From a virus (Duplodnaviria > Caudoviricetes), in IMG/VR virus record IMGVR_UViG_3300021425_000044, positions 1-57,013 of that record: a stretch of DNA of 57,013 bases; one strand, 5' to 3'. This document shows positions 10,929 to 55,770 of the stretch, one piece after another. Under the pieces are notes generated by a model, which saw only the letters and a list, made by a program, of their open reading frames with translations, was not told the DNA's origin and searched no databases. Position numbers and translations under genes: made by a program. Numbering within the stretch: position 1 is the first letter of the stretch; every line of letters starts with the position of its first letter.

Positions 10929-11828
10929 TTAGTCTTTTGGCAACTCAATCTTCTGAGTAACTGCCCCCTGGTTCTCAGCACTCGACATTGCCGAGGAGAA
11001 CTGGTAGGAGCTAATGTTGGGGGCCATGTCTTTGAAAGACCCTGTATGAGGCTCTCTGAAAGGTACAGACCCTTCCTTACCGGAGTCGATACGCTGTCGG
11101 GCGTATCTCTTTGCATCCTCTGATGCCCGAGGGGCCTTTAACACATCCCGCTCCCAGGAGGTAGTTGCCTCGGGGGGCGCTACGTACGAAGGCATTGAGG
11201 AGCCTCCATCCTCGTACTCGTTCTTATATGATATGGAATGGCCCTGTTGCATATCTTTCATACCCTGTCTAGCGGTACGGGCACCCGGCTCATTCCTATC
11301 AAATAGTGCTTCGTTCCCCCCATCACCGTGTACACCATAATCAGGACGTAGCACTCCAGCACTGCCCTCGGTAGACGGAGGAATACTTGCCCCCTCTTCC
11401 CACCGGAAGCCAACCTCAGCAGCATTAGCTTGCTGGTCAGACATTGGAAGGTTCTTAGATATCCCCATAGAGGGGTCTTCACGAGGAGTCTGGTCGATCA
11501 ACCGCCGAGCGTAAATACGCCCTTCATGCTCCGTTTTGACCGGCGTCATCGGATCATCCGACTTCACCCCGTAGTACCTGTTGTTGTCAGATGCACTATG
11601 AGCAATGCTGGAAGACATGTCCTCGATACGCGCAAGGGCCTGGTCTTTGGTACCAAAATGATGTACAGGTGCCTTAGTCCAGTCTGAGCGCATGGAGCCG
11701 TGGTAGACAGGGTTAGTCTTGTCCACCCAGTCATCCATTGACAGCTCTCCTAATTCAGGGGGTGGGCTGTTGTAGTCGTCCTTGTCGAAGAGGGTGAGCT
11801 GCTCAAACTGGTCTTTATTCAGAGTCAT
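10929..11828 (-). CDS. ADP-ribosyltransferase-like protein (ART-PolyVal-like), paralog of 6393-7316
   Basis: VYHGS, HFGTKDQALAR, YKNEYEDGGS..SY, TSWERDVL; start placed at ATG 11828 by TGG-TATGAT-N6 promoter. Confidence 0.6.
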   Translation of the reverse strand: MTLNKDQFEQLTLFDKDDYNSPPPELGELSMDDWVDKTNPVYHGSMRSDWTKAPVHHFGTKDQALARIEDMSSSIAHSASDNNRYYGVKSDDPMTPVKTEHEGRIYARRLIDQTPREDPSMGISKNLPMSDQQANAAEVGFRWEEGASIPPSTEGSAGVLRPDYGVHGDGGNEALFDRNEPGARTARQGMKDMQQGHSISYKNEYEDGGSSMPSYVAPPEATTSWERDVLKAPRASEDAKRYARQRIDSGKEGSVPFREPHTGSFKDMAPNISSYQFSSAMSSAENQGAVTQKIELPKD

Positions 11829-11872
11829 GTACACATCATACCACGTCGTACCCTGTTGTCAAACCACTACCG

Positions 11873-12640
11873 CTAGGTGTAGGGGTACGGATCGGTCGAA
11901 GATCCTTTAGACCTAGCCTCTTTAATGTCGTTGTGGTGTACAACCGGGATGAGGGTGTCGGGGGCGATGTCCATAGACGCTGCAATACGGTGGTGGCCCC
12001 CCACTATTTGAGGCTTACCCTTCATCCCCTTTGTCTGACCTAGATGCACCGGGTTCTTTACTCCTTCGGATTTGATCTTAGAGTGTAGGGTGTTACCAAA
12101 GCTGTAATAGTTGTCAACCCTGTCGTTGTACTCTTGATCGACACGGTTATCAAACGATTCCAGTGCCTCATCGTACGTGTTGGTACCTCCAGTACGGTAT
12201 TCAGGGTAGCCGTCACGATCGCCCACGTGGTCGTGAGCATCGGTGTAGCCAGGCTCCATTTCCTTTACCTGCTCAGTACCCCCAATGGCGTGCATATAGT
12301 CCGATTTCCTCATTTGGGACTCTTCTAACTTTCGGCTCCATAGCTCCTCGTCAGTCTCTTCCCCAGGGTTGTACTTATAGGGAAAGGTAGTGCCCCCCTC
12401 TCGTGGGGGCTTGGAAAACCCGCTATGGGTATAGTTAGGGTCTCCTTTAGTGTTGTGAGAACGGAACGTCCCCGAGGTGTCGCCCATCCATCCACGAACA
12501 TGATCGTAGTACCCGTGTTCGTTTTTCTGCATACGATCTCCGTCCAGGGGCTGGTACTTACTCGTAATCTCTTTGGGGGTCATAAACATTTTGAGCTGCT
12601 CGCCGCCCGTTGCCGAGGTACTAGGACTAACTCGTCTCAT
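11873..12640 (-). CDS. Protein with C-terminal ParB/Sulfiredoxin-like domain
   Basis: LHSKIKSEGVKNPV...IVGGHHRIAA...IPV. Confidence 0.7.
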   Translation of the reverse strand: MRRVSPSTSATGGEQLKMFMTPKEITSKYQPLDGDRMQKNEHGYYDHVRGWMGDTSGTFRSHNTKGDPNYTHSGFSKPPREGGTTFPYKYNPGEETDEELWSRKLEESQMRKSDYMHAIGGTEQVKEMEPGYTDAHDHVGDRDGYPEYRTGGTNTYDEALESFDNRVDQEYNDRVDNYYSFGNTLHSKIKSEGVKNPVHLGQTKGMKGKPQIVGGHHRIAASMDIAPDTLIPVVHHNDIKEARSKGSSTDPYPYT

Positions 12641-13097
12641 TTGCTGTCTCCTGAAAGATGTGATACCCGTCTTTGGTGCGCCGTTCGCTCGGGAATACGA
12701 ACCCTACATGTCTCTTCACTTCAAAGCCCTCACGGTCGATGGGCAGTGTATTGGACTCAGGCATGTAGACCCGAGGGTCACCGTCCTTGGCATACTTCTT
12801 CGACTTCTCGATGTCGATATGGAGCGCAGGGTGGACCTCGTACTCGCTCTTGGGACCGACCTCGTAGACACTGGCAAACAACCGGCCCTGACCTTCACGT
12901 GGCTCCGCAGCCCCCTTGAGACCAAAGTAGCTCGCTGTGGATGTGCTATCGGCCCCGAACGCTGCCCTCTCACCTTTCATATGAATGGTGTCAGGAGTAG
13001 GGTCAACAGTGTCGCCTGGGGAGAACCCATGTCCGCTGCCGTGGTACACAGGACCGTCAGGCTGCATGGCGAACTGGGAAGAAAGATTATCTTTCAT
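12627..13097 (-). CDS. Arr-like ADP-ribosyltransferase-fold protein
   Basis: VYHGS..F.PGD.V.P ... A..F ... VYEVGP pattern as in the rifampin ART family; N-terminus MKDNLSSQF. Confidence 0.6.
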   Translation of the reverse strand: MKDNLSSQFAMQPDGPVYHGSGHGFSPGDTVDPTPDTIHMKGERAAFGADSTSTASYFGLKGAAEPREGQGRLFASVYEVGPKSEYEVHPALHIDIEKSKKYAKDGDPRVYMPESNTLPIDREGFEVKRHVGFVFPSERRTKDGYHIFQETANETS

Positions 13098-13173
13098 CCT
13101 TGTGACCTTCTCGGTAGCCGCCCCCCGTATCTACGGTAGAGTACGTGAACTGGGTATCGTTAATAACACTCAT
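13087..13173 (-). pseudogene. 28-aa mini-ORF or truncated gene with INDTQF tag
   Basis: Manual: MSVINDTQFTYSTVDTGGGYREGHKDER; overlaps start of the next gene. Confidence 0.4.
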
Positions 13174-13260
13174 CAAGCGCGCCCCTATGGTGTGAGTGAG
13201 TAGACATGTATAGAGTATAGCTTACCTATCAAGACGCCGACTGCGAAACCATTTTCTCAG

Positions 13261-13308
13261 AGGTATAATTATCAGCGTAGGTATAACAATAGGTATAACA
13301 ATAGGTAC
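13261..13308. repeat. 12-bp tandem repeat TAGGTATAACAA (2 full + partial copies)
   Basis: Copies at 13278 and 13290; partials at 13261 and 13302. Confidence 0.8.
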
Positions 13309-13322
13309 AGGACCTATAACGG

Positions 13323-14000
13323 TCAGGTATCCAGCGACAACTGTTCCTGTTCCTGTTTCTGAGTCTGTCGAGCGTCACTCTTGCGCCCGAGGATAGACCG
13401 CACCGTATTGCGGCCCCTGTTTACTTCCCCTGGAGAAACAACTTCTCCACCAGACCAGTCTCCCTTCGGTGCCCTCCAGAAACCTACCGAATTCGTGGCG
13501 TGTCTCTCAAAGCCCTTATCAACGGCCCCCTTATCTTTCAGTCTACCCACCAGATTGTCCGAGTGTTCACTCAGGTCCGTGTCTGGAGTGAGCGAGTAGC
13601 CTCTCTTCATTGCGTCATTTTGGGCAATTCCTAGGAGGTTCATGCCAGCGACCTTAGCAGAGGTGGTGTTCGTACCTCCCATGCTCACTACGGTTGCCGA
13701 ACCGGGGGAGTTGAAGTGGTCAAAGAGCTTTTGTTGGCCTTGTTCCGGCTGTACGATCTTCGACGGAATACCCGACGTGTCCCAAGTGTCCGACACCACT
13801 TCATCCTCATCGTTCCAGTTTCTATAAACGTCCGCAGGGGGGCGATAGCTTACAACCACGTGGCTGTCCATATCATGCTCATCGGGGGCGATATTAGACG
13901 GTTGGGGGCGTGAGTCCGACGAAGCGTGGTTGTAGTGTATTTCTCCAACCGAATTCCATCGGCTAGCGTCCCGAACATAGGCACCTTTTTTAATGGTCAT
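13323..14000 (-). CDS. Hypothetical protein, possibly degenerate GNAT-like fold
   Basis: AGMNLLGIA...LTPDTDLSEHS..LV..L reminiscent of phage GNAT-like proteins; QQKLF and QLSL motifs; leaderless promoter. Confidence 0.6.
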   Translation of the reverse strand: MTIKKGAYVRDASRWNSVGEIHYNHASSDSRPQPSNIAPDEHDMDSHVVVSYRPPADVYRNWNDEDEVVSDTWDTSGIPSKIVQPEQGQQKLFDHFNSPGSATVVSMGGTNTTSAKVAGMNLLGIAQNDAMKRGYSLTPDTDLSEHSDNLVGRLKDKGAVDKGFERHATNSVGFWRAPKGDWSGGEVVSPGEVNRGRNTVRSILGRKSDARQTQKQEQEQLSLDT

Positions 14001-14072
14001 ACCCTTATCATACCACTTTGGGGGCCTATTGGACCACTTTTTGGGTGTGGGTGCCGTGTGTTACCTACCCAC

Positions 14073-14485
14073 TTATCCACAGGTTATCCCCAATTTATGG
14101 TGGGGGGGGTGTGGATAACCTGACCCCCCTTATCCCCAGCCTCTATCCCCATGTTATACACAGGGGGGGGCGATACGTGGAGTGGTGTGACCATTGTCAC
14201 GTGACAGTTGTCACACCGACAAGGTTATCCACAATCACCGACGACTTATCCACACCCTGTGGATAAAGGTGTGGATAACACACCCCATGTGACCATGGTC
14301 ACATCCTCTGAGTCCGCCTGTGTTGCGTTCTAAGGCGTCGACCCCCCTCTGCGCCCCCGTCATACCAAAATGAGATTCTAAGAGCTTAGGGGGCAACGTT
14401 TTTCTGTGGATAACTCCAACGGCCCATATGCCATAAGGCTCAGATCAGATCCTGAAATAATGGACGCCTCACAGGGTTATCCACA
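14073..14485. promoter_or_regulatory. Cluster of DnaA boxes
   Basis: TTATCCACA at 14073, 14225, 14246, 14477; TGTGGATAA at 14110, 14258, 14270, 14405; TTATACACA at 14154; TTATCCCCA variants at 14084, 14130. Confidence 0.85.
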
Positions 14486-14793
14486 GCCCATGGTGTGACA
14501 TTTGTCACACCATTTCATGTGACATTTGTCACACCGTTTCATGTGACATTTGTCACACCGTACCCCTGGAACCGCCCCCCACTTGATCAGATAGTTAGGC
14601 CTACTTAACATGGACAGTTAGGACTTGCTATCACATGGTAGGAAACACACCCGATATGGGATATGAACCATTGCTAACCTGAGAATGATCCCGTCTGATA
14701 GCTAACGAGAACCGTTCTCAGATCTATTCCTCTATAGAATCATTCTCAATAAGTTGGGGGGCGATGTTGGGGGGCGATGTGACGAATGTCACA
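14186..14793. promoter_or_regulatory. Array of CRP/GlxR-type palindromes TGTGA-N6-TCACA
   Basis: Sites at 14186, 14200, 14288, 14494, 14518, 14542, 14778; the three at 14494-14557 form a 24-bp tandem repeat. Confidence 0.75.
14595..14750. promoter_or_regulatory. Weaker DtxR/IdeR-like and Fur/Zur-like sites
   Basis: TTAGGCCTACTTAA 14595, GTTAGGACTTGCTA 14617; TGAGAATGAT 14680, GAGAACCGTTCTCA 14707, TAGAATCATTCTCAAT 14735. Confidence 0.45.
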
Positions 14794-15189
14794 CGCCCAT
14801 GACGAGGAACGGCACCCCCCATGGGCTATCTTGATTCACGTCGCCGCAGGACTGCGACCGAAGGCCAGTAGCTCCCGGCGACGGGGGCGAGGGCCGGGGA
14901 TTCTTGACAACACAGCACCCCCGCTCGGGCGAGATCGGCCAGCCACCAGGCCCGCCACCAACCGCGCCGTGCGAGCACCACGCTCGCCGGTAGCCACACT
15001 CGCCGCCACCGTTGCACACGCACCGGACACGGGCACCGGGCGGGGGGCGAAGAAACGACACGACGGCGACACGCAGTCCAGGGTTCCTCCTGCACACGCA
15101 CCTGAGCCGCTCGGAACCACGCCCGTAAGGGCCGCAGCATCGCAACCCCCGCACCCTGGTCGTCCCAGGGCCGGGGGGCGCAGCTTGCA

Positions 15190-15520
15190 GGGGGACGAAC
15201 GGCGAGACGGCAGCGTGTGCGGGTTCCCAGGAACGCACCGTAGATCACCCTCTACACGCAGGCGTGACAGGCACCGACCACACTCAGACGAGCAAGAGAT
15301 CGGAGCCTGCTAGGGCCGTCGTACTGCAGCGTAAACGTGGGGGATGACGCCTCTCAGACCGGCAACGGTCAGGCCACTACGAACCACGCACTGGAGCCAC
15401 GGCAAGGCTCAAGGGATGACGACGCTGCGAGCACTCCCCCCGACACCGGACAACCCGGTGGGGGGTGTTGCTCAGGGTTCTCGACTCCGGTCGAGCACCC
15501 TGAGGAGCACTGCTCCATAC
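15190..15520 (+). ncRNA. Candidate structured RNA / long leader upstream of the first plus-strand gene
   Basis: GACCG-GCAA-CGGTC, CTCGAC-TCCG-GTCGAG, nested stems GCAGCGT/ACGCTGC, CTCAGGG/CCCTGAG. Confidence 0.45.
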
Positions 15521-15549
15521 CCATCAACGCCTAGGAAGGACATGCATCC

Positions 15550-15828
15550 ATGACCACCACCACCACCTCCGCAGTCATCGACGGCGGCGCACTCGCAGCC
15601 GAGGCCGACCGCATCAGCCACCACCCGGCGATCGTTGAGATGGCCCACGGGCTCATCGCCACCGGCCAGCACCGGGACATCATGTTCGCAGCGCCCGACG
15701 CCCTGCCGTTTGATTTCATCAACGCAGCCAACCGCGAGGCGAACCGCCGCGGCGTCGGCCAATTGCGGATCGGCGCACCGGCCCGAGCCGTCCGGGCGGC
15801 GCTGTTCGACATCGTGTTCCCCCGCTGA
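15550..15828 (+). CDS. Hypothetical protein
   Basis: AGGAAGG RBS; high-GC3 codon usage. Confidence 0.75.
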   Translation: MTTTTTSAVIDGGALAAEADRISHHPAIVEMAHGLIATGQHRDIMFAAPDALPFDFINAANREANRRGVGQLRIGAPARAVRAALFDIVFPR

Positions 15829-15874
15829 CCGACCGACCACCATGTTCATCCGCCAACAACAAGGAGACACCACC

Positions 15875-16207
15875 ATGACCACACCCCACGCACAGGAGGC
15901 CGCCGCTTACCGAGCAGAGCTGCAGGCCCGCCAGACGATTGCGGCGGGATTCCCCCGATCCCCCCACAAGCCGTCGTGCCCGAGCGACGTGAGCACCATC
16001 AGACGCATACGTCCAGGTCTCTACGAGACGGTCGACCACGCCAGCCCCCGGCACGCCTGCACGATCGAGGAGATTCGCCCAGGGCACGAGTGCCATGAGC
16101 ACCTGGGCACTGGCTGGATGCTCTATGACGCCCTCAGCAGGCCGGTGTGTATGTTCGACACGCTGCGCGAGGCCGCCACTTACCACGCAGATTCCACCAC
16201 CACCTGA
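15875..16207 (+). CDS. Hypothetical protein
   Basis: AAGGAG RBS before ATG 15875 (MTTPHAQ). Confidence 0.75.
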   Translation: MTTPHAQEAAAYRAELQARQTIAAGFPRSPHKPSCPSDVSTIRRIRPGLYETVDHASPRHACTIEEIRPGHECHEHLGTGWMLYDALSRPVCMFDTLREAATYHADSTTT

Positions 16208-16244
16208 TACCCACCTGATACCCACTGTCATACCCACCTGATAG
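16200..16244 (+). repeat. 11-bp tandem repeat CCACCTGATAC
   Basis: Copies at 16200, 16211, 16234 and a degenerate copy at 16222. Confidence 0.8.
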
Positions 16245-16291
16245 GGTGACACTTTCAATCCACCACCAACGTCTCGAAAGGACACAACAGC

Positions 16292-17545
16292 ATGGCTTCA
16301 TCCGCAGACCTCACGAAGGGCGACGACGTATTCGTCAACGCCGGACCATTCAAGGGCATGACCGGCACGGTTATCGACCCTAAGGCCGTCCCTGACGGTC
16401 TCCCCAACCAGCGAAAGGTTCTGGTCTCGATCGAAGGCGAAGAGACCTACATCCTCCCCCGCCTCCTCGACCTGGGGGCGGGCGTCGCACCGGCACCGGC
16501 AGCGCTGACCGTGGCCGATATCACCGACGCCACCCCCGGTGCCACGCTCACCGTGGCCGAGCCGATCACGGACCCGATGGACCCGGCCCTCGACCGGTTC
16601 CGGCCAGACCCGAAGGTCGTCCAGGGCTACATCAATCGCACCGTGCCTGGGGGCATGACTGACGTGGACTTCCTGCTGGCTCTGCGGGAGGATCGTGACA
16701 CCAACGGGTACTCCCCGAACATCGCCATGGTGGGCGATACCCAGTCCGGCAAGACCATGCTGGTTCAGGTGTTGGCAGTCCTCGCCGCCGAGCGTGACGG
16801 TCTCCCTAAGCCGTACCCGATCTTCACGATTCAGGGCAGCATCGGCGTCACGAATATGGACATGTTCGGCATGACCACGGCGGTTGTGGTCGACGGTCGA
16901 GAAACACTGGTCTGGATGGAGGGTCTCGTACCCCTGGCTGCACGGTGCGGGGGCATCCTCTACCTGGACGAGATCAACGCCGTGCCCCCGGCGCAGGCCG
17001 TGGCCCTGCACCCCCTGATGGACGGTCGTCGTCAGTTCGTCAACACTCAGAAGGCAGTACCGGACGGTCACGGTGGCTACGCCCCCGAGGTGGTCACCGC
17101 CCACCAGAATCTCTGGACCATCACGACGATCAACCCAGAGTACAAGGGCACCCAGAACCTGGGCGATGCCTTCAAGGCTCGGTCCCGCTGGATTCCCTGG
17201 GATTACGACGACGCCACCGAGCGTCGCCTCATCAAGTCCGCAACGGTGCGGACGCTGGGCAGCCTGCTCCGGTCAGCCCGTAGCCGCAATGCCATCACGA
17301 CGGCGGTCGGCACCAGTGCCCTCCAGCGGTTCAACATGGACGTGGCGACCTACGGCACTGAGACGGCAATATGGTCGTTCCTGGCGATGTTCCCGCTGCG
17401 GGAACGCCCAAGTGTCGAGACCATCATCGAGGATGGAGGAATCACGGCCATGCTTGAGGCTGAGTATCCGATACCGACCAGCGGACTCGTTAAGAGGGAA
17501 GACCCCGCAGAAGCGGTGGGCACGTCAGCCGTCGACCCCTTCTGA
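16292..17545 (+). CDS. MoxR/CbbQ-type AAA+ ATPase with N-terminal KOW-like domain
   Basis: GDDVFVNAGPFKGMTG (KOW); Walker A GDTQSGKT; Walker B LYLDEIN; TINPEYKGT. Confidence 0.9.
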   Translation: MASSADLTKGDDVFVNAGPFKGMTGTVIDPKAVPDGLPNQRKVLVSIEGEETYILPRLLDLGAGVAPAPAALTVADITDATPGATLTVAEPITDPMDPALDRFRPDPKVVQGYINRTVPGGMTDVDFLLALREDRDTNGYSPNIAMVGDTQSGKTMLVQVLAVLAAERDGLPKPYPIFTIQGSIGVTNMDMFGMTTAVVVDGRETLVWMEGLVPLAARCGGILYLDEINAVPPAQAVALHPLMDGRRQFVNTQKAVPDGHGGYAPEVVTAHQNLWTITTINPEYKGTQNLGDAFKARSRWIPWDYDDATERRLIKSATVRTLGSLLRSARSRNAITTAVGTSALQRFNMDVATYGTETAIWSFLAMFPLRERPSVETIIEDGGITAMLEAEYPIPTSGLVKREDPAEAVGTSAVDPF

Positions 17546-17556
17546 TTCACTGACGA

Positions 17557-17589
17557 CAGGTGTGGGGGGCGCACTGCCCCCCGCACCTG
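17557..17589 (+). terminator. GC-rich hairpin
   Basis: CAGGTGTGGGGGGC/GCCCCCCGCACCTG. Confidence 0.55.
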
Positions 17590-17616
17590 ATACCCTACTG
17601 ATACCCTACTGATACC
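17587..17616 (+). repeat. 11-bp tandem repeat CTGATACCCTA
   Basis: Copies at 17587, 17598, partial at 17609. Confidence 0.8.
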
Positions 17617-17646
17617 AACACCCCTACCGAGGAGATCACCACCACC

Positions 17647-19677
17647 ATGAGCAAGAGCAAAGCAAAGCCAAGAGGACTCGCCCCAGCCCCGCAGAAGGGG
17701 ATCTCTAAAGAGATCGCCGCCGACCGGCGTAGGGCGCAGGCCGCTGACCGCCGTCAGCGGGAGAAGAAGAAAGAGATGGAACAAGCCGCCGCACGGCAGC
17801 GACTCAGCCAGCGCCAGGGGTCGAAGCCCAGCGAGGAGCAGCTTCTGCTCTCCCACATTCAGAGTATCGTTGCGCCCGCCCAGACCGCCCTCCTTCGGGC
17901 GTGGGGGTACGACATCACCGTACGTGGTGGCTGCAAGGAATACGGCAATGGTCAGACCGTTGCCTGGACTGACTTCAAGACCGTCTACGTCGGGGCGGGT
18001 CGAGACCTCGTGATGCCACGAGACGGTCAGGACAAGTTCGACCGTATCGTCTCCGCTGTAGCGTCCCTCAAGGGTGTGTATCAGCACGAGTTTGGGCACG
18101 TTCGCTTCACCGTTCCATTCAATATCCTCAGGAAGTCCACCGCCAGCGAGCTTGGTGACAACCCCCTGACCGCTTACCACCAGCAGACCTGGAACCTCCT
18201 GGAAGATCAGCGTATGGAGTCGGCGGTTGTGGCATCGGTGCCTAGCATCGCTGAGTACTTCAAGGTGATGGTATCGGACATCGTACTGGCCGGGGAGATG
18301 AACGACCGTGCTTGGATGTTCATCGCTGGGCGTAAGTACATGAGCGCCGCCCTACGTCAGGCCGCTCGTGACCTATTCGCAGCCCAGCACGGCGACGCCG
18401 CCGCCACCAGGTGGGAGGAGATTGTCGCCGCCTACAAGGCAGCGACGACCAACATCGACCTGGCTGAGACGGTCATCCTCGCCAAGACGTTCCTCGATGA
18501 CCTAGGTGTTGACAGCAACCGGAGCGTGGGCGAGCACCGGGCCGCAGACGACGGTCGTCGTCGCTTCGCTAGTAACGAGGAACCGGCCAAGGGCGCAGAC
18601 CCCGATGCCGGTGCCACCGACCACGACGAAGACGCTGACGGCGTAGACGCTGACGGCGACGACACTGACGGCGACGACACTGACAGTGCAGCCGGTGCCG
18701 GTGCCACCGTCGACGGCGACGACGGCGAAGGCGACGACACTGACGCTATCGCCCAGGGCGGTGGCGAGAACATCACCGACGACGAGGCTCAAACTACTGA
18801 TACCGATAACCCTTCCAATGGTGTCGGTAGCGGTGACAGTCTCAAGTCGCTCGCAGAGCAGGAGCGCCGTGAGGCTCAAGAGGAAGTAGCAGAGCACCAC
18901 GACGTGCAGGCGATGGCGTACAGCGTCAACGAAGCATCAAGCACTGGTCAGGGTTCGGATTACCCGGTATACACCGGGCTCAAGCGGGATTTCGACGCCG
19001 ACGTAGTTTCCTCCTGCGAACAGAATGCCACGGCAATAGTTGAAGGGTTCAACAGTTTCATGGCTGCACGCTCGCCCCATATGATGGGCGGTCAAGAGAC
19101 CGGTTACCTCGACCCCTTGGCATACCGTACTCGTGAGGTCGGCAGCCGTAGCTACCGTCGAGATATGGACGGTGAGGTAAACCAGACCCTCGACATGCAC
19201 CTTTCGGTGCTGGTCGATAATAGCGGGTCAATGATCGGCGCTCCGATGGACGAGGCAAGCCAAGCTATCTACACGCTGCATACAGCGGCCAATGAGATCG
19301 GGCTGCCCACCAACTTCCTCCTCTGGTCAAGCCACAGGCAGGTATACCAGGTTGCTACCGGAGACCCCGAGCCAGTCCACTACGAGACCGGGGGCGGTAC
19401 CCACCCTGATGAAGCCGTTAAGGACAGTATGAACCACTGCGAGGATTCGGTCAGCAATCACCTCGTGGTCATCGTCACGGACGGTTCATGGGGCGACGAG
19501 TCAAGGTATTCGATCCTGAGTACCGAGCGCCGGGACAACACGAAGTACCTCTTGATATGTATCGGAAACTCGACCCCTCCCGATGGTCACTCCTACGCTG
19601 ACGCTACGGTGACTATCAGCAGCGCCTCGCAGATGGGTCCGGTCATCGAGTCTGCGTTGCACGCCTTGGTTGGCTAA
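17647..19677 (+). CDS. CobT-like protein: HExxH metallopeptidase-like domain, acidic linker, C-terminal vWA
   Basis: HEFGH...NLLEDQRME; Asp-rich linker; MIDAS DNSGSM, GGT, VTDG. Confidence 0.88.
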   Translation: MSKSKAKPRGLAPAPQKGISKEIAADRRRAQAADRRQREKKKEMEQAAARQRLSQRQGSKPSEEQLLLSHIQSIVAPAQTALLRAWGYDITVRGGCKEYGNGQTVAWTDFKTVYVGAGRDLVMPRDGQDKFDRIVSAVASLKGVYQHEFGHVRFTVPFNILRKSTASELGDNPLTAYHQQTWNLLEDQRMESAVVASVPSIAEYFKVMVSDIVLAGEMNDRAWMFIAGRKYMSAALRQAARDLFAAQHGDAAATRWEEIVAAYKAATTNIDLAETVILAKTFLDDLGVDSNRSVGEHRAADDGRRRFASNEEPAKGADPDAGATDHDEDADGVDADGDDTDGDDTDSAAGAGATVDGDDGEGDDTDAIAQGGGENITDDEAQTTDTDNPSNGVGSGDSLKSLAEQERREAQEEVAEHHDVQAMAYSVNEASSTGQGSDYPVYTGLKRDFDADVVSSCEQNATAIVEGFNSFMAARSPHMMGGQETGYLDPLAYRTREVGSRSYRRDMDGEVNQTLDMHLSVLVDNSGSMIGAPMDEASQAIYTLHTAANEIGLPTNFLLWSSHRQVYQVATGDPEPVHYETGGGTHPDEAVKDSMNHCEDSVSNHLVVIVTDGSWGDESRYSILSTERRDNTKYLLICIGNSTPPDGHSYADATVTISSASQMGPVIESALHALVG

Positions 19678-19763: not shown

Positions 19764-19818
19764 TTCTGATATCCCCCTGATACCCTTCTTGTTCCACCTA
19801 ATACCTTAAGGAGTAGCT

Positions 19819-26335: not shown

Positions 26336-26710
26336 CTACGCCTTTGTTATGTGTTTACGGATACTGGAACGGATATCAGGGATATTGAGCCGTCTCTCTG
26401 GCTCTGGTAATAACATATCACCTGGAGGAGGAAGTAGGTTAATCTTCTCTGGATCTAGCCTCTTACTCGGATTGAACGGTATACCCTCTCTACGCTCCTT
26501 CGGGGTGCGGCCTCCCCACATACCGTGCTCTTCATCGGCTCCTAAAGCGTCACACGCCTCTCTCTGTGTGCAGTTACCACAAACCAGACGCCCTATGTCA
26601 TAGTATTTAGACTCGGGGGCGGTTCTCTCCTCGCTGAATATCGGAGGAAAGAACAGATCAACATGAACGTCTTTGCACAGAGCTTTGCTGTCATCCAGTA
26701 GGTCAGCCAT
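26336..26710 (-). CDS. whiB: WhiB-family transcriptional regulator
   Basis: ALC..VDLFFP, CGNC....C, GMWGGRTPKER. Confidence 0.9.
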   Translation of the reverse strand: MADLLDDSKALCKDVHVDLFFPPIFSEERTAPESKYYDIGRLVCGNCTQREACDALGADEEHGMWGGRTPKERREGIPFNPSKRLDPEKINLLPPPGDMLLPEPERRLNIPDIRSSIRKHITKA

Positions 26711-30092: not shown

Positions 30093-30149
30093 TAGTTTCT
30101 CCTGTTATTGTTACGGATTGTGAACGTATTATGTGTATTCTACCACTTA

Positions 30150-30509
30150 TCAGGTAGTAAATCTATCCATGGGTCCTAGGTACTCGGGGCGGTCGTCGTT
30201 ACCCTTACCACGAGCCTGGAAGGTGGCGAGAGCGGAGGCGTGCCAGAGTACGCTCACGATATGGGGGGTACCCGTTTCCTCATCGATATCCTCACCGTTC
30301 CAGAACTGCCAGAGGTGGCGCTGGAGAGCACCGAACGAGAGGGACCAGTTATATCCTCGCTCCCAGTTACGATCGGCATACTTTTCTGCTCCCCGACCGT
30401 ACGCTTCTGCGAGCATCCATATCGCTTCTTGTGGAATCAGATCAAAGCGAGCTAGTTTTTGTCCTTTCTCTCCTCCGGTGTTGGGATCTACGATGCGTAC
30501 TTCGGACAT
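30150..30509 (-). CDS. dATP/dGTP diphosphohydrolase (DUF5664-like)
   Basis: RFDLIP...GAEKYADRNWERG..WS...LQRHL..FWNGEDIDEETG.PH. Confidence 0.85.
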   Translation of the reverse strand: MSEVRIVDPNTGGEKGQKLARFDLIPQEAIWMLAEAYGRGAEKYADRNWERGYNWSLSFGALQRHLWQFWNGEDIDEETGTPHIVSVLWHASALATFQARGKGNDDRPEYLGPMDRFTT

Positions 30510-30582
30510 TTATTACTCCTCCTGCTGAAGGAGCAATTATACCTGAAGGGGAGACTAAAAGCAATACCTGTATAAAGAAAGT

Positions 30583-30632: not shown

Positions 30633-30678
30633 GAAAGTGTTAGGTATGGGTAACCTAACAGACCACGTTTATATATGA

Positions 30679-30897
30679 TTAGCCTTTGATCGTAGTAATA
30701 CGCTTCCCTGCGAGAGCCTTCGCCCGCTGCGAAACAGTGTCGTCATAGAGAACGTCGTGACGGGCGTCTTTTGCGAGGTAAGCGGAGAGGTCATCGTTCG
30801 GGGTGCCACCACGATCAGGGGCGACCTTCTTCACGTAACCATCAGTGATCCCTTCCTGGAGATCAGAGTTCATACTACGAGATTCGTTAACAGCCAT
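30679..30897 (-). CDS. Hypothetical protein
   Basis: ORF track; AGGA RBS. Confidence 0.7.
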   Translation of the reverse strand: MAVNESRSMNSDLQEGITDGYVKKVAPDRGGTPNDDLSAYLAKDARHDVLYDDTVSQRAKALAGKRITTIKG

Positions 30898-41500: not shown

Positions 41501-42004
41501 TTAACGCTTGGGATAATAGCGCTTTATGTATGTCCTAAACCCCGGCCAATTGGCCTTTGAGGGGGTCAGGATGTATGAGTTGTACGCCTTAACCAGAAAC
41601 ATAACCTGCTCCTGGCTATAAAGCCGCTTGCCCTGTACTGCTTTACCGGGCACTTGCTCACCCCTGGGCTTTGACGTACGGTAGGTGGCCTTTGGAAGCC
41701 ACCCCTTTGACTCCCACGAGCGGATGGTAACGGGCTTGTTACCGAGAGCCTCAGACAGCGCACCAATGGTGTACATCTTCTTGGTCTCTCGTTCCTTGCC
41801 CACTACCATCTTCTTGTAGGGTAAAGACCCTAACACAGAAGACACCTCTTTGTCAAGAGTCTCCTGACTATTCCTGGGAGGGGTATTACCTGGGAAGGAG
41901 GGTGCCGGTGTGGGATCTTGTTTAAGTGACTCCCCGTCTGGCATCTCAAACCCAGGCTCGCTTGCAGCGAGTTTGTAGAATCTATCGAGGGCAGGGTCTT
42001 TCAT
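41501..42004 (-). CDS. MerR-like helix-turn-helix protein
   Basis: YTIGALSEALG..PVTIRSWESKGWLP...RLYS. Confidence 0.8.
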   Translation of the reverse strand: MKDPALDRFYKLAASEPGFEMPDGESLKQDPTPAPSFPGNTPPRNSQETLDKEVSSVLGSLPYKKMVVGKERETKKMYTIGALSEALGNKPVTIRSWESKGWLPKATYRTSKPRGEQVPGKAVQGKRLYSQEQVMFLVKAYNSYILTPSKANWPGFRTYIKRYYPKR

Positions 42005-47205: not shown

Positions 47206-47786
47206 TAGAGGGTTTCCAATTCAAAAGAGGCCAACGGACTGCTTAGTCTATCTCCAAACCGTGCCTTGATATCCGTAACGGAGAGGGAAGTGGTGATAAC
47301 GGTCGTGAGCATTGCGTCATACCTAGAACGTATGAGGGTGCCGATCTCGTGAGCGGCGAACTCCGTCTTGCGGGTTCCCTCAAGATCATCGAGGAGCAGA
47401 ACATCATACGAAGCTCGGATGTGTTTGAGAGCGTAGGGATCGTTGTATTCGTCTGACAAGATGCCGTCCCCATCCTCTTCAAAGCTATTCTTAATCATAT
47501 CAACATAAGCATCAGCCGTAATCATACGAGCCGAAGCACCGTGCTCGGTGATGAGGTCCTCTACTAATCGGATCGCAGTAGTGGTTTTACCAGACCCGGC
47601 ACGTCCTGAGAGGATGAGACTTGCTCCCTCCTCGTACTCGTCTACGAAGTCGTCTAAGTCATGGGATACATCTCTTGACTCTCTGAGGGGGCGTCCTTTA
47701 ACACTCCCAAGGAAGTGAGACATGCGATCACCTTCGGAAAGGTGTGACCACCACTTCTTACTCTTCCACTGTTGAGGCGTTTTCAT
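47205..47786 (-). CDS. DnaC/IstB-like ATPase (helicase loader)
   Basis: GRAGSGKT, LLLDDL, RSRY....TVITT, R..S.L. Confidence 0.85.
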   Translation of the reverse strand: MKTPQQWKSKKWWSHLSEGDRMSHFLGSVKGRPLRESRDVSHDLDDFVDEYEEGASLILSGRAGSGKTTTAIRLVEDLITEHGASARMITADAYVDMIKNSFEEDGDGILSDEYNDPYALKHIRASYDVLLLDDLEGTRKTEFAAHEIGTLIRSRYDAMLTTVITTSLSVTDIKARFGDRLSSPLASFELETL

Positions 47787-48544
47787 CCTGCGATCTCCTC
47801 ATACTCCTTAACGTTCTGACGTTTTGATAGGTACGCAATAATGTACTGAGAGAGTGTGTCCCGCTGGGGTCTAATACCTCGGGGAGCGGGGACTGGGCTG
47901 ACTAGCTCCTTAGGCAGGGCACACCACTCAATCAGTGCGAGGTGCGGCTCGACATCAGACTTGTCGTACGGCTTACCTGCCATATTGTACTTAACCACGC
48001 TTTCCAGCGAGGACAACAAAGCATACGTGTACACGAACGACTTGTCGGCAGACAGGATCTCCGCAATAACCTCTGGATATCTAAAACACTCGTTACAGGC
48101 TAACAGCACGGCCCGTCTCTTGTCTTTCACCTCGCTGAGAGCCTCAGACTTGCCCATGCCCTCTAACAGCCAGTGGAAGATGGGATGCTCCTCGGGACTG
48201 ACAGTGACGGCTACCCCGGCCAAGCAAGCGTCCATAACCTCCCGAGAGAGGAATGCTCGTGCAGGCTTATTACTATCTGAGGCGATGCTTTGAAAGAAAA
48301 CGTCAACCGATGTTCGTAGAGAAATGTCGGTATAACCTGCCTTGGCGAGACGTATGAAGGTATACCCGAGGAGGTTCTTGTCCTCCTGATCGACTACCTT
48401 AGTCATGTCCCCCATCGATTTATGGTAAGAGAAATAATCGATAAGGTCTTTGATATTCCTACGGAAGAATACGGGGCGGGGGCGGGGGTTTTCCCAGTCC
48501 GTGGCATCGCCATCGTTATCCGGCCAATCGTCCCAATCACCCAC
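47783..48544 (-). CDS. Hypothetical protein (position suggests a replication initiator)
   Basis: Immediately upstream of the DnaC-like gene; coupled. Confidence 0.65.
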   Translation of the reverse strand: MGDWDDWPDNDGDATDWENPRPRPVFFRRNIKDLIDYFSYHKSMGDMTKVVDQEDKNLLGYTFIRLAKAGYTDISLRTSVDVFFQSIASDSNKPARAFLSREVMDACLAGVAVTVSPEEHPIFHWLLEGMGKSEALSEVKDKRRAVLLACNECFRYPEVIAEILSADKSFVYTYALLSSLESVVKYNMAGKPYDKSDVEPHLALIEWCALPKELVSPVPAPRGIRPQRDTLSQYIIAYLSKRQNVKEYEEIAG

Positions 48545-49383
48545 TACTTAGCCCCTTCATCGAGCATCCCTTGATCTTGTAACACCTCAATCGTAGCAGT
48601 TGAGGTCGAGGCTAGGAGGATAAGGAGATCACGGAGGGGTTTCAAAGCCTCGTCAATGATACTCTCATTGACCTGGGGAGCGGGTTTGTCTGTGATTCCT
48701 ACAACCTCTAATGCGTCCTTGACAGCATTATCAACCTGTCGTGGACCCGGCCCCATGATGGACGTACCACTATCTGGGAAAAGCTCAGCAATGATCGCTG
48801 ACTTAGTAGTTCCTGTGGCCCCGATACGGGCACCGTAACGTTTCACAGCATGTGCAGTCATAGTGTCAAGCTCCATCTTAGTGAAGGAGCGGTCGTCGTC
48901 CGGTTCGGAGTCCTCTACGACAACCTCTGAGGAAGGTGATTCCTGGGGAACCACTACGTCTTCCTCGTCTACCAAGATGATAGGCTCAAGGCCGTTGGTA
49001 AGCTCAAGGTATCTGACCTCTTCACCTGTCACGTTAAAGGCGTTCATTAGCATGTCCTCAGTCTCCTGATCCTCTCCCCACATCAGAAGTACCTGGTCAA
49101 CGTCCGACACTGTGGACGACAACTTGTTCCGTGTCTTACGGATATCGACGTGTTCAAGCCCTTTCAGGAGAGGGACTACTTTGTCCCCGTCCTCGTACAT
49201 AAGGACGGTAGGGACTTCAAAGTCAAGCAGGTAGTCCCACAGGGAGCCTTCGTCCACGGTCATAGATGAACTCCCCCATGCGACCTTGACAGAATCCCCT
49301 TCTTTGAGAGAGTCCTTGAGACCAGCGACGATGACCTCTTTCGGTGTGTTAGCTCCTCGTCCGATGATGGCATATGTACCCAT
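48544..49383 (-). CDS. Hypothetical protein
   Basis: AAGGA RBS. Confidence 0.75.
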   Translation of the reverse strand: MGTYAIIGRGANTPKEVIVAGLKDSLKEGDSVKVAWGSSSMTVDEGSLWDYLLDFEVPTVLMYEDGDKVVPLLKGLEHVDIRKTRNKLSSTVSDVDQVLLMWGEDQETEDMLMNAFNVTGEEVRYLELTNGLEPIILVDEEDVVVPQESPSSEVVVEDSEPDDDRSFTKMELDTMTAHAVKRYGARIGATGTTKSAIIAELFPDSGTSIMGPGPRQVDNAVKDALEVVGITDKPAPQVNESIIDEALKPLRDLLILLASTSTATIEVLQDQGMLDEGAK

Positions 49384-55353: not shown

Positions 55354-55770
55354 TTAGACCTGGATATGGATATCGCCTTCTTCTCCTCCGCTAGGAGGAG
55401 TACCCGTACTAGCTGTAACGGTAACAACGCGGTTACCTTCCACAGTAGCTGAGCCATCAACCTGTAGATTCTGCGTCCATGTGTCTCTTGCCGTAAGATT
55501 ACCTTCAACAAGGAGGTCCCCCATAAGCGCACCACCGTCTAACGAAAGGTAGAGAGCCTCGTGGTTATGACCGCCCCCGTTATTAACGATCTCGTCGCCA
55601 TCTAAAGAAGTAGTATTACCGTCCCATAGGAGTTGACCTTCTTCCCAATCGGCGGGGGGATCGTCGGGATCACCCGTTAGAACATGCTCGCCATCAAACG
55701 TGCCTCCGCCTCCACCTACTCCACCGGATACGGGTATGATATCATCGCCTTGCTTTAACCATAGTCCCAT
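55354..55770 (-). CDS. Short tail-fibre-like protein
   Basis: Start MGLWLKQ at 55770; shares GDP.DP...WEEGQLL.DG module with 55772-56842. Confidence 0.7.
   Translation of the reverse strand: MGLWLKQGDDIIPVSGGVGGGGGTFDGEHVLTGDPDDPPADWEEGQLLWDGNTTSLDGDEIVNNGGGHNHEALYLSLDGGALMGDLLVEGNLTARDTWTQNLQVDGSATVEGNRVVTVTASTGTPPSGGEEGDIHIQV

What the first reader, a model, noticed from the sequence alone, without database searches (positions are those of the whole stretch)
14050..14800. Multiplex array of host transcription/replication-factor sites: candidate DNA decoy (sponge) or entry/origin element
Seen: within ~750 bp of apparently non-coding DNA at the divergence point between minus-strand and plus-strand gene blocks lie 9 DnaA boxes, 7 CRP-type palindromes, then DtxR-like and Fur/Zur-like sites, repeated and interleaved. 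Known: these are consensus sites of four unrelated host regulator families; datA titrates DnaA; the T5 injection-stop region carries DnaA boxes. The phage has its own primase, helicase and loader. Inference: the density exceeds normal promoter control and suggests titration of host global regulators, host-state sensing (replication, cAMP, metal), or protein-assisted genome entry near a terminus.
Basis: partly seen in the sequence, partly recalled or inferred. Interest (0 to 1): 0.9.

Follow-up and report, generated by a model that had tools for sequence, protein, structure and literature searches.

The report
DnaA-box and CRP-site hub in phage
A gene-free stretch of an uncultured marine phage of actinobacteria is packed with conserved docking sites for the host's replication starter DnaA and for a cAMP-receptor-type regulator, so the phage probably reads or exploits these host proteins there, but nothing yet shows that it soaks them up.

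Summary
Positions 14073-14485 carry 8 perfect and 3 one-mismatch DnaA boxes; no other perfect box occurs in the 57-kb contig. Seven GTGAC-N4-GTCAC palindromes lie at 14187-14792 and nowhere else (0.14 expected). The "DtxR-like" sites do not stand up as full sites, and the "Fur/Zur-like" sites are weak.

The array is not an assembly chimera: contigs from independent marine runs bridge it. Three relatives, whose flanking protein is about 52% identical, keep it. Box and palindrome-arm positions are 98% identical, against 74% for the rest of the array.

The array is the left half of a conserved 1.5-kb non-coding region between a leaderless leftward promoter and a GC-rich, structured leader. The phage encodes WhiB, which points to an actinobacterial host, plus DnaB, DnaG and a DnaC-like loader. 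No DnaA or CRP homologue was found.

Best reading, at about 0.4: a docking hub for host DnaA and CRP that gates divergent transcription. Main rival: a DnaA-dependent replication origin. A decoy or a T5-like entry signal remains possible but has no specific support.

The closest published analogue is the T5 injection-stop repeat region. This scan has noted DnaA/CRP-site cassettes in other phages before.

The parts
13323..14000 (-). First gene of the leftward block: 225 aa, no known family. GQQxLF and C-terminal EQLS.D residues are invariant in its family.
14006..14015 (-). TGGTATGAT extended -10 element lying 6 nt before the ATG, giving a leaderless-type promoter for the left gene. L004 has TACGAT-N6-ATG at the same place.
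   Evidence: The same TGGTAnnnT-N6-start layout precedes several other genes of this contig.
14012..14045 (.). Two ACCACTTT(G/T)(G/T)GGG direct repeats 21 bp apart, over the -35 region of the left promoter.
   Evidence: family D18; conserved
14073..14092 (+). Tandem DnaA-box pair TTATCCACA-GG-TTATCCCCA, identical in all three aligned sequences.
14110..14162 (.). DnaA boxes at 14110 (-, perfect), 14130 (+, 1 mismatch) and 14154 (+, 1 mismatch), flanked by G8 and C6 runs.
14186..14215 (.). Two abutting CRP-type palindromes, TGTGACCATTGTCACG and CGTGACAGTTGTCACA.
   Evidence: The arms are conserved and the N4 spacers vary.
14225..14278 (.). Four perfect DnaA boxes: 14225+, 14246+, then the tandem pair 14258- and 14270- separated by 3 bp. 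Positions 14256-14283 form an inverted repeat with 14056-14083.
   Evidence: pair I3
14288..14303 (.). CRP-type palindrome TGTGACCATGGTCACA.
14405..14413 (-). Perfect DnaA box, conserved in the relatives.
14453..14565 (.). Insertion specific to this lineage: one perfect DnaA box (14477) plus three CRP-type palindromes as a 24-bp tandem repeat (14494-14557).
   Evidence: Absent from L004 and L005.
14593..14625 (+). Two AGTTAGG(C/A)CT direct repeats 23 bp apart. L004 and L005 have a GTTAGG-N4-CCTAAC palindrome here.
   Evidence: (D19)
14706..14751 (.). 7-1-7 palindrome CGAGAACCGTTCTCA, a 5-1-5 palindrome AGAATCATTCT, and the AT-richest 30-mer of the region (14722-14751; fifth on the list of easiest-melting non-overlapping 30-mers of the contig).
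14753..14793 (.). GTTGGGGGGCGAT in two tandem copies, then the seventh CRP-type palindrome (14778-14793).
   Evidence: D16
14795..15549 (.). Conserved non-coding region of about 70% GC that follows the array. It is probably a structured RNA leader; the strand is not settled. It contains a window-specific insertion at about 14925-15068.
15550..15828 (+). First gene with a coding signal on the rightward side (92 aa, phrog_2223, function unknown).

Best explanation
The array is a conserved protein-docking hub in the main divergent non-coding region of an uncultured marine phage of actinobacteria. Host DnaA would bind the 11 boxes, which are arranged as tandem and inverted pairs. A dimer of the CRP family, most simply the host's cAMP-receptor protein, would bind the seven 16-bp palindromes. 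Other conserved palindromes and repeats bind factors that remain unidentified.

The hub lies directly upstream of the leaderless promoter of the leftward accessory-gene block. It also lies upstream of a long, GC-rich, structured leader that precedes the rightward block. The most likely function is to gate transcription of these two blocks by the state of the host, through DnaA and cAMP levels. Any titration of those proteins as phage copies accumulate would be a side effect.

Shown: the sites exist, they are confined to this region, they are under purifying selection, the region is non-coding, and the promoter layout is as described. Inferred: which proteins bind, and what binding does.
For: - **Confinement to the region.** All 8 perfect DnaA boxes and all 7 palindromes of the contig lie here, far above chance.
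- **Selection on the sites.** Against L004, box positions are identical at 87 of 89 and palindrome-arm positions at 39 of 40. The N4 spacers match at 9 of 16 and the rest of the array at 349 of 471. Fisher p is 4e-11 for L004 and 2e-6 for L005.
- **Overall conservation.** The whole non-coding region is 85% identical to L004, against 75% and 79% for the two flanking genes.
- **Fit to the CRP motif.** All seven palindromes fit the CRP_Mt motif as quoted in PMC5758884 (passage).
- **Host.** A WhiB gene at 26336-26710 points to an actinobacterial host (PMC10202952 passage).
- **No phage-encoded binder found.** No family search of the ORFs scanned hit a DnaA or CRP-family protein. Those were Pfam, PHROGs and NCBIfam for 10 ORFs.
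- **Promoter next to the array.** TGGTATGAT-N6-ATG abuts the array on the left.
- **Promoter-proximal use of the same box pair elsewhere.** The exact tandem-box 21-mer recurs in 23 IMG/VR contigs and 13 bacterial loci. In the bacterial loci examined it lies within tens of bases of a gene start. In other phage contigs perfect boxes, some as tandem pairs, are dispersed through the small locus, not gathered in one cluster. This is the behaviour of a promoter element, not of an origin.
Against: - No canonical rightward promoter of the phage's own TGGTAnnnT type lies in 14000-15700.
- The palindromes sit 190-790 bp from the left start site, too far for textbook CRP activation.
- Eleven boxes and seven palindromes are more than two promoters normally need.
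- Nearly all boxes are perfect consensus, as expected of a sink or a strong origin.
- The host is unknown, and no binding or transcript data exist.
- Only three relatives, in effect two lineages, could be compared.
Confidence: 0.4

Rival explanations
1. The array is a replication origin that uses host DnaA. A DnaA oligomer on the box cluster would open the nearby AT-rich segment and recruit the phage DnaB helicase through the phage DnaC-like loader. The palindrome-binding protein would act as an architectural factor.
For: - Eleven boxes in 413 bp sit beside an easily melted 30-mer at 14722-14751.
- The phage encodes DnaB, DnaG, a DnaC-like loader and Pol I but no recognised initiator.
- The array sits at a strand-switch point.
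- From memory, actinobacterial chromosome origins are box-rich.
Against: - No conserved DnaA-trio array follows any box. The only run of three NAN triplets, after the 14073 pair, is absent from L004 and L005 and runs into a G8 tract (my reading against the rules in PMC8287927).
- The AT-rich segment is only fifth on the list of easiest-melting 30-mers of the contig.
- Cumulative GC skew shows no turn at 14 kb.
- The replication genes lie 24-35 kb away.
- Two unassigned genes (48544-49383 and 47783-48544) sit where phage initiators usually sit, just upstream of the loader.
Confidence: 0.25
2. The array is a DNA decoy or sponge. As phage genomes multiply, it would sequester host DnaA (as datA does) and CRP, stopping host chromosome initiation and disturbing the cAMP regulon.
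For: - Eight of the 11 boxes are perfect high-affinity consensus.
- Each lineage has gained sites of its own. The window has one extra box and three extra palindromes, and L005 has an extra palindrome.
- There are more sites than two promoters need.
Against: No feature is specific to titration: every observation also fits regulation or origin function. The order and spacing of the sites are conserved, which a pure sink would not require. The claimed DtxR part of the 'multiplex' set fails.
Confidence: 0.12
3. The array is a T5-type entry or injection-stop element. Membrane-associated DnaA would hold the incoming DNA at the array so that only the leftward accessory genes are expressed first.
For: T5 Repeat Region 3 is a 1.2-kb untranslated region that is better conserved than its neighbouring ORFs. 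About 8 DnaA boxes, paired 3 bp apart inside inverted repeats, are spread over Repeat Regions 2 and 3, with many palindromes and direct repeats (bioRxiv 10.1101/866236: abstract and section 3.3 read). The window likewise has box pairs 2-3 bp apart, a 28-nt inverted repeat carrying boxes, palindromes, and small accessory genes beside the array.
Against: - The role of the T5 boxes is itself only a hypothesis.
- No PHROG family at all was found for the four leftward genes next to the array, so homologues of T5 A1, A2 or dmp, if present, are not recognisable.
- The genome ends are unknown.
- T5 positions 4-12 kb hold only 3 perfect boxes and no perfect CRP site.
- The same box pair is mid-genome in a complete 105-kb phage.
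Confidence: 0.06
4. The palindromes, and perhaps the other repeats, are operators of a phage-encoded regulator that has not been recognised, not sites for host CRP.
For: - The sites are confined to a single hub, as phage operators often are.
- A preference for C at position 6 and G at position 11 (GTGAC..GTCAC) is kept in all copies.
- Many ORFs have no family, and a MerR-type HTH protein (41501-42004) and a WhiB protein exist.
Against: No CRP/FNR-type or other matching dimeric HTH protein was detected. All seven sites fit the published CRP_Mt and CRP_Ec motifs.
Confidence: 0.2

Closest known systems
[quoted passage not shown]
   Same: Both are kilobase-scale untranslated regions that are better conserved than the neighbouring ORFs. 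Both carry several DnaA boxes in pairs 2-3 bp apart inside inverted repeats, mixed with palindromes and direct repeats, next to small early accessory genes (10.1101/866236; T5 record).
   Different: T5 positions 4-12 kb have 3 perfect boxes against 8 here, and no perfect CRP-type palindrome. The host phylum differs. There is no evidence that this array lies in a terminal repeat, and no PHROG family was found for the leftward neighbours. The function in T5 is itself unproven.
Bacterial oriC and its basal unwinding system (DnaA boxes, spacer, DnaA-trios, AT-rich element)
   Same: Both have a dense cluster of consensus DnaA boxes that includes a tandem pair whose upstream box is the stronger, with an AT-rich segment nearby (PMC8287927 passages).
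   Different: There is no conserved DnaA-trio run, no dnaA or dnaN neighbour, and CRP-type palindromes are interleaved with the boxes.
datA-type DnaA-titrating box clusters of bacterial chromosomes
   Same: Both are clusters of high-affinity boxes away from any recognisable unwinding element. This comparison rests on recall plus the search listings, not on text I read.
   Different: This cluster is carried by a phage and combined with sites of a second regulator. Titration is untested.
CRP/GlxR-type sites of actinobacteria (CRP_Mt motif)
   Same: All seven palindromes fit (C/T)GT(G/C)(A/G)-N6-(T/C)(C/G)AC(G/A) (PMC5758884 passage).
   Different: There are seven copies in 600 bp, three of them as a 24-bp tandem repeat and two abutting. 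None is at a classical distance from a mapped promoter.
Double DnaA boxes at DnaA-regulated promoters
   Same: The tandem pair at 14073-14092 recurs letter for letter near gene starts in bacteria of several phyla and in 23 viral contigs.
   Different: Here it is one of about five pairs in an array, and no gene starts on the side towards which it points.

Membership tests
Bacterial-type origin (oriC / basal unwinding system) | Cluster of DnaA boxes that includes a tandem pair | tested here: met
Bacterial-type origin (oriC / basal unwinding system) | At least 3 consecutive NAN DnaA-trios within 16 nt of the box, conserved in relatives | tested here: not met
   Read by eye against the rules quoted. 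One minimal run of three triplets follows the 14073 pair; it is not kept in L004 or L005 and abuts a G8 tract. I derived the strand orientation of the rule myself.
Bacterial-type origin (oriC / basal unwinding system) | Adjacent, distinctly AT-rich unwinding element | tested here: inconclusive
   Positions 14722-14751 are fifth on the list of easiest-melting non-overlapping 30-mers. At 50 and 100 bp the region is unremarkable.
Bacterial-type origin (oriC / basal unwinding system) | Replication actually starts there | not testable with these tools
   Only contig-level depth was available.
datA-like DnaA sink / decoy | High-affinity box cluster without origin activity that lowers free DnaA | not testable with these tools
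   The box quality is shown. The effect on free DnaA needs an experiment.
T5-type injection-stop region | Long untranslated repeat region with paired DnaA boxes in inverted repeats, better conserved than neighbouring ORFs | tested here: met
   compared
T5-type injection-stop region | Location at the inner end of a terminal repeat, beside pre-early genes A1/A2/dmp | tested here: inconclusive
   The contig has no terminal repeat and is a fragment. No PHROG family was found for the four leftward genes next to the array.
CRP-family binding site | 16-bp palindrome fitting TGTGA-N6-TCACA or the CRP_Mt motif | tested here: met
   7 of 7 sites fit.
CRP-family binding site | Bound by a CRP-family protein of the host | not testable with these tools
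   The host is not identified. No phage CRP homologue was found.
DtxR/IdeR box | 19-bp palindrome close to the IdeR consensus (consensus recalled from memory) | tested here: not met
   The best matches in the array have 7 of 19 mismatches, which is chance level.
Fur-family (Fur/Zur/PerR) 7-1-7 box | 15-bp 7-1-7 inverted repeat (format recalled from memory) | tested here: inconclusive
   The site at 14706 has 6 of 7 arm pairs, but 106 such sites occur in the contig. L004 has a perfect TGAGAATGATTCTCA at the aligned place.

The most novel reading that the evidence does not exclude
The array is a phage-borne sink for several host regulators. It would combine a datA-like DnaA trap with a CRP trap and grow by adding sites lineage by lineage. 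As phage DNA accumulates it would shut off host chromosome initiation and the cAMP regulon. The neighbouring leftward genes, whose products carry sliding-clamp-like motifs, would take over the host replication machinery alongside it.
Probability: 0.12. Interest if true: 0.8.

Novelty: new variant of a known kind. Interest (0 to 1): 0.5.

Why it matters
DnaA boxes in phage non-coding DNA have been known since the T5 work, but their function has never been established. This array is a cleaner and denser case. The boxes are under measurable purifying selection. They are combined with cAMP-receptor-type sites. They occur in an abundant, recurrent marine phage lineage of actinobacteria. If host DnaA and CRP do bind, the region gives a defined substrate for asking whether phages sense, borrow or neutralise the host's replication and energy-state regulators. 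The exact tandem-box 21-mer shared by unrelated phages and by bacteria of several phyla also suggests a widely reused DnaA-docking module.

Tried and rejected
- **Assembly chimera with host oriC: rejected.** Contigs of runs X2 (13518-14523 and 14506-16110) and X5 (12910-14867) bridge gene into array and array into the GC-rich side.
- **Known phage: none.** There was no DNA match in the phage collection. All 4947 records matching the DNA polymerase were under 60% identity, and the listed best were 34% or less.
- **Rfam:** only two sub-threshold microRNA-model hits.
- **IMG/VR searches with no relative found:**
  - the AAA_5 protein;
  - the alignment of the 225-aa family;
  - a 23-mer from the GC-rich leader;
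  - a 20-mer palindrome search, which found two unrelated contigs with no boxes.
- **Genome contigs with the 225-aa family:** no relative.
- **Host or kin through a RecA look-up in the protein atlas:** only viral RecA clusters came back.
- **Structure predictions.** The 225-aa neighbour (pLDDT 56) and the 253-aa gene upstream of the loader (pLDDT 56) were both too poor to search with, so no fold search was run. PDB sequence searches of the 279-aa and 253-aa proteins gave nothing below E = 0.1, and NCBIfam gave nothing useful.
- **Idea that the box pair marks contig ends: dropped.** The positions I first read were locus coordinates. In the complete 105-kb genome the pair is at 55,365.
- **Idea that the 21-mer marks bacterial oriC: rejected.** In 5 of 5 genomes checked it is not beside dnaA.
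- **Rightward promoter:** I looked for CRP class I or II spacing to a -10 element by eye and found none.
- **Literature searches.** Six were run. None returned a paper on DnaA-box arrays in marine phages or in phages carrying WhiB. This holds only for the library searched.
- **Supplements.** The T5 preprint refers to supplemental files for its repeat descriptions, and I did not see them.
Full report
**What the window is.** The window is the whole assembly, a single contig of 57,013 bp. It has no terminal repeat. No terminase, portal or capsid family was hit among the ORFs scanned, so it is probably a fragment of a larger phage genome.

Genes found:
- a baseplate wedge protein, family-A DNA polymerase, queuine-tRNA-ribosyltransferase-like protein and glycosyltransferase;
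- NrdJ, an amidase and a methyltransferase;
- RecA, ThyX, a Cas4-like nuclease, DnaG-type primase and DnaB-type helicase;
- a DnaC-like loader;
- an AAA_5 ATPase, a DUF6011 protein and an SNF2 helicase.

One ORF, 26336-26710 on the minus strand, is a WhiB-type protein. A passage of PMC10202952 describes WhiB as exclusive to Actinobacteriota and as an indicator of their phages. The DNA recurs in seawater and marine metagenomes: 20 runs from 9 studies are listed, and 3 of the runs hold half or more of the sampled words. Nothing similar is in the phage collection at DNA level. The polymerase is at most 34% identical to the listed best hits.

**The observation.** Eight perfect TTATCCACA boxes lie at 14073-14485, and none lies elsewhere in the contig. 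With three one-mismatch boxes that makes 11 sites in 413 bp. At one mismatch or fewer the contig holds 22 sites, against 10.6 ± 3.3 in shuffles; 0 of 100 shuffles reached 22.

Seven GTGAC-N4-GTCAC palindromes lie at 14187-14792 and none elsewhere. Shuffles gave 0.14, and 0 of 100 reached 7. Two palindromes abut, and three form a 24-bp tandem repeat. All seven fit the CRP_Ec or CRP_Mt motifs as quoted in PMC5758884.

The 'DtxR-like' element fails as a site. The best matches in the array have 7 of 19 mismatches to the recalled consensus, which is a chance-level score. The sequence actually contains two AGTTAGG direct repeats. The 'Fur/Zur-like' element is one 7-1-7 palindrome with 6 of 7 arm pairs, one of 106 such sites in the contig, plus a 5-1-5 palindrome.

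G or C runs of six or more bases are also concentrated here: 8 of the contig's 51 lie in 14050-14830.

**The region is non-coding and larger than reported.** No frame-specific GC3 signal appears between 14001 and about 15540. Coding signal resumes at 15550. The left gene cannot extend upstream, because an in-frame stop precedes any start codon. The array is therefore the left half of a 1.5-kb gene-free region. The right half, 14795-15549, is about 70% GC.

**The array is not a chimera.** Contigs from four runs of four studies were laid on 12500-17500, leaving out the possible source run. X2 bridges 13518-14523 and 14506-16110. X5 carries a diverged version spanning 12910-14867. Among the differences that were listed (203 further ones were not shown), 14195 and 14207 fall in palindrome spacers. 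Only 14115, seen in one run, falls in a box.

**Relatives.** A scan of metagenome contigs with the family alignment gave three loci whose protein is 50-52% identical. All three keep boxes and palindromes just upstream of the homologue. L003 is cut inside the array by the end of its contig.

In the alignment of the window with L004 and L005, identity to L004 by class of position is:

| Class of position | Identical / compared |
|---|---|
| DnaA boxes | 87 / 89 |
| Palindrome arms | 39 / 40 |
| N4 spacers of the palindromes | 9 / 16 |
| Rest of 14061-14799 | 349 / 471 |

Fisher p is 4e-11 for L004 and 2e-6 for L005.

The whole non-coding region is 85% identical over aligned positions. The 225-aa gene is 75% identical and the AAA_5 gene 79%. 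L004 and L005 are close to each other, so this amounts to two lineages.

Each lineage has its own additions. The window has a 112-bp insertion with one box and three palindromes, and L005 has a second palindrome copy with an extra AT-rich insert.

**Promoter context.** Several genes of this contig are preceded by TGGTAnnnT, often exactly 6 nt before the start codon. From my own knowledge, this is the extended -10, leaderless layout common in actinobacteria. The left gene has TGGTATGAT-N6-ATG at 14015-14007, and L004 has TACGAT-N6-ATG. No such element points rightward anywhere in 14000-15700.

**The tandem box pair is a widely reused module.** The exact 21-mer at 14072-14092 occurs in 23 IMG/VR contigs of 35-51% GC. 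Their flanks fall into several unrelated groups, and none has the palindromes. Some of these contigs carry 5-9 perfect boxes dispersed over a few kilobases, some of them as tandem pairs.

The 21-mer also occurs in 13 loci of bacterial genomes from several phyla, against about 0.27 expected. One of the 13 looks like a phage contig binned in a MAG. Three Streptococcus loci share one context, and three alphaproteobacterial loci (Rhodobacterales-type) share another. In the loci examined the pair lies within tens of bases of a gene start. In 5 of 5 genomes checked it is not beside dnaA. In one complete 105-kb phage it is mid-genome. This pattern fits a promoter-proximal DnaA module better than an origin marker.

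**Origin test.** I applied the published rules for the basal unwinding system (PMC8287927 passages). No conserved DnaA-trio run was found. The AT-richest 30-mer, 14722-14751, is fifth on the list of easiest-melting non-overlapping 30-mers, and the region is ordinary at 50-100 bp. Two unassigned genes sit upstream of the loader, where initiators usually lie. Their function could not be resolved.

**T5 comparison.** The T5 preprint was read in abstract, in section 3.3 and in passages. It describes a 1.2-kb untranslated repeat region that is better conserved than its neighbours. About eight DnaA boxes, paired 3 bp apart within inverted repeats, are spread over Repeat Regions 2 and 3. The preprint proposes that they are an injection-stop signal. 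The T5 record itself shows 3 perfect boxes and no perfect CRP site in 4-12 kb. The resemblance in architecture is real. Membership cannot be tested here.

**Verdict.** The element is a conserved multi-site docking hub, which I file as a new variant of the phage DnaA-box regions known from T5. My best reading is host-state gating of divergent transcription, at 0.4. A DnaA-dependent origin is the main rival, at 0.25. The decoy reading (0.12) and the T5-like entry reading (0.06) are not excluded, but nothing specific supports them.

Earlier AI notes of this scan describe similar DnaA and CRP-site cassettes in other aquatic actinobacterial phages. I treated them as leads only.

Noticed in passing
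window 14795-15549: A conserved, non-coding stretch of about 70% GC follows the array. RNAalifold on three sequences gives 6 compensatory pairs on the + strand and 10 on the - strand. The single-sequence z-score is -4.0 on the + strand and -2.6 on the - strand. It is probably a large structured RNA; the strand is unsettled and there is no Rfam match.
   Followed up: partly
window 16204-16246, 17587-17617, 19766-19785: Tandem (A/C)CTGATACCC words with an 11-bp period, in 2-3 copies, sit in each intergenic gap of the rightward GC-rich gene block. CTGATACC occurs 10 times against 1.7 expected. They are candidate sites for a phage-specific regulator.
   Followed up: partly
window, e.g. 4056, 4536, 11843, 14015, 33256, 42233, 53227 (minus strand): TGGTAnnnT extended -10 elements, several of them exactly 6 nt before a start codon, give leaderless-type promoters. 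The one at 11843 implies that the gene listed as 10929-11834 really starts at 11828.
   Followed up: partly
window 30640-30658: This is the best match in the contig to the recalled IdeR/DtxR 19-bp consensus, with 3 mismatches. It lies in the gap between divergent genes 30133-30528 and 30679-30897.
   Followed up: no
window 26336-26710 (-): A WhiB-type protein is encoded here (Cys-X..-C-X2-C-X5-C and GMWGG). One other small ORF of the 39 scanned matches SpoVS; I did not locate which one.
   Followed up: partly
window 14800-19500: An island of 62-73% GC sits in a 52% GC genome. It covers the structured leader, the AAA_5 ATPase gene and a 676-aa gene, and suggests a module acquired from a source with higher GC.
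   Followed up: no
window 13323-14000 (-) and its family (alignment A1): GQQxLF is invariant internally and EQLS.D is invariant at the C-terminus (EQLSLDT in 11 of 13 members). These resemble sliding-clamp-binding peptides, as another first-reader note suggested. Relatives are annotated with an N-terminal extension that starts inside a DnaA box, which is probably a gene-calling artefact.
   Followed up: partly
window 18587-18745: Copies of a 15-bp-period tandem repeat lie inside the 676-aa gene, encoding an acidic Asp/Gly/Thr/Ala-rich repeat.
   Followed up: no
L046 (MAG contig assigned to Candidatus Arcticimaribacter): This 4.9-kb contig binned in a flavobacterial MAG has the same flanks around the 21-mer as the IMG/VR locus L027. 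It is a possible host hint for that unrelated phage group.
   Followed up: no
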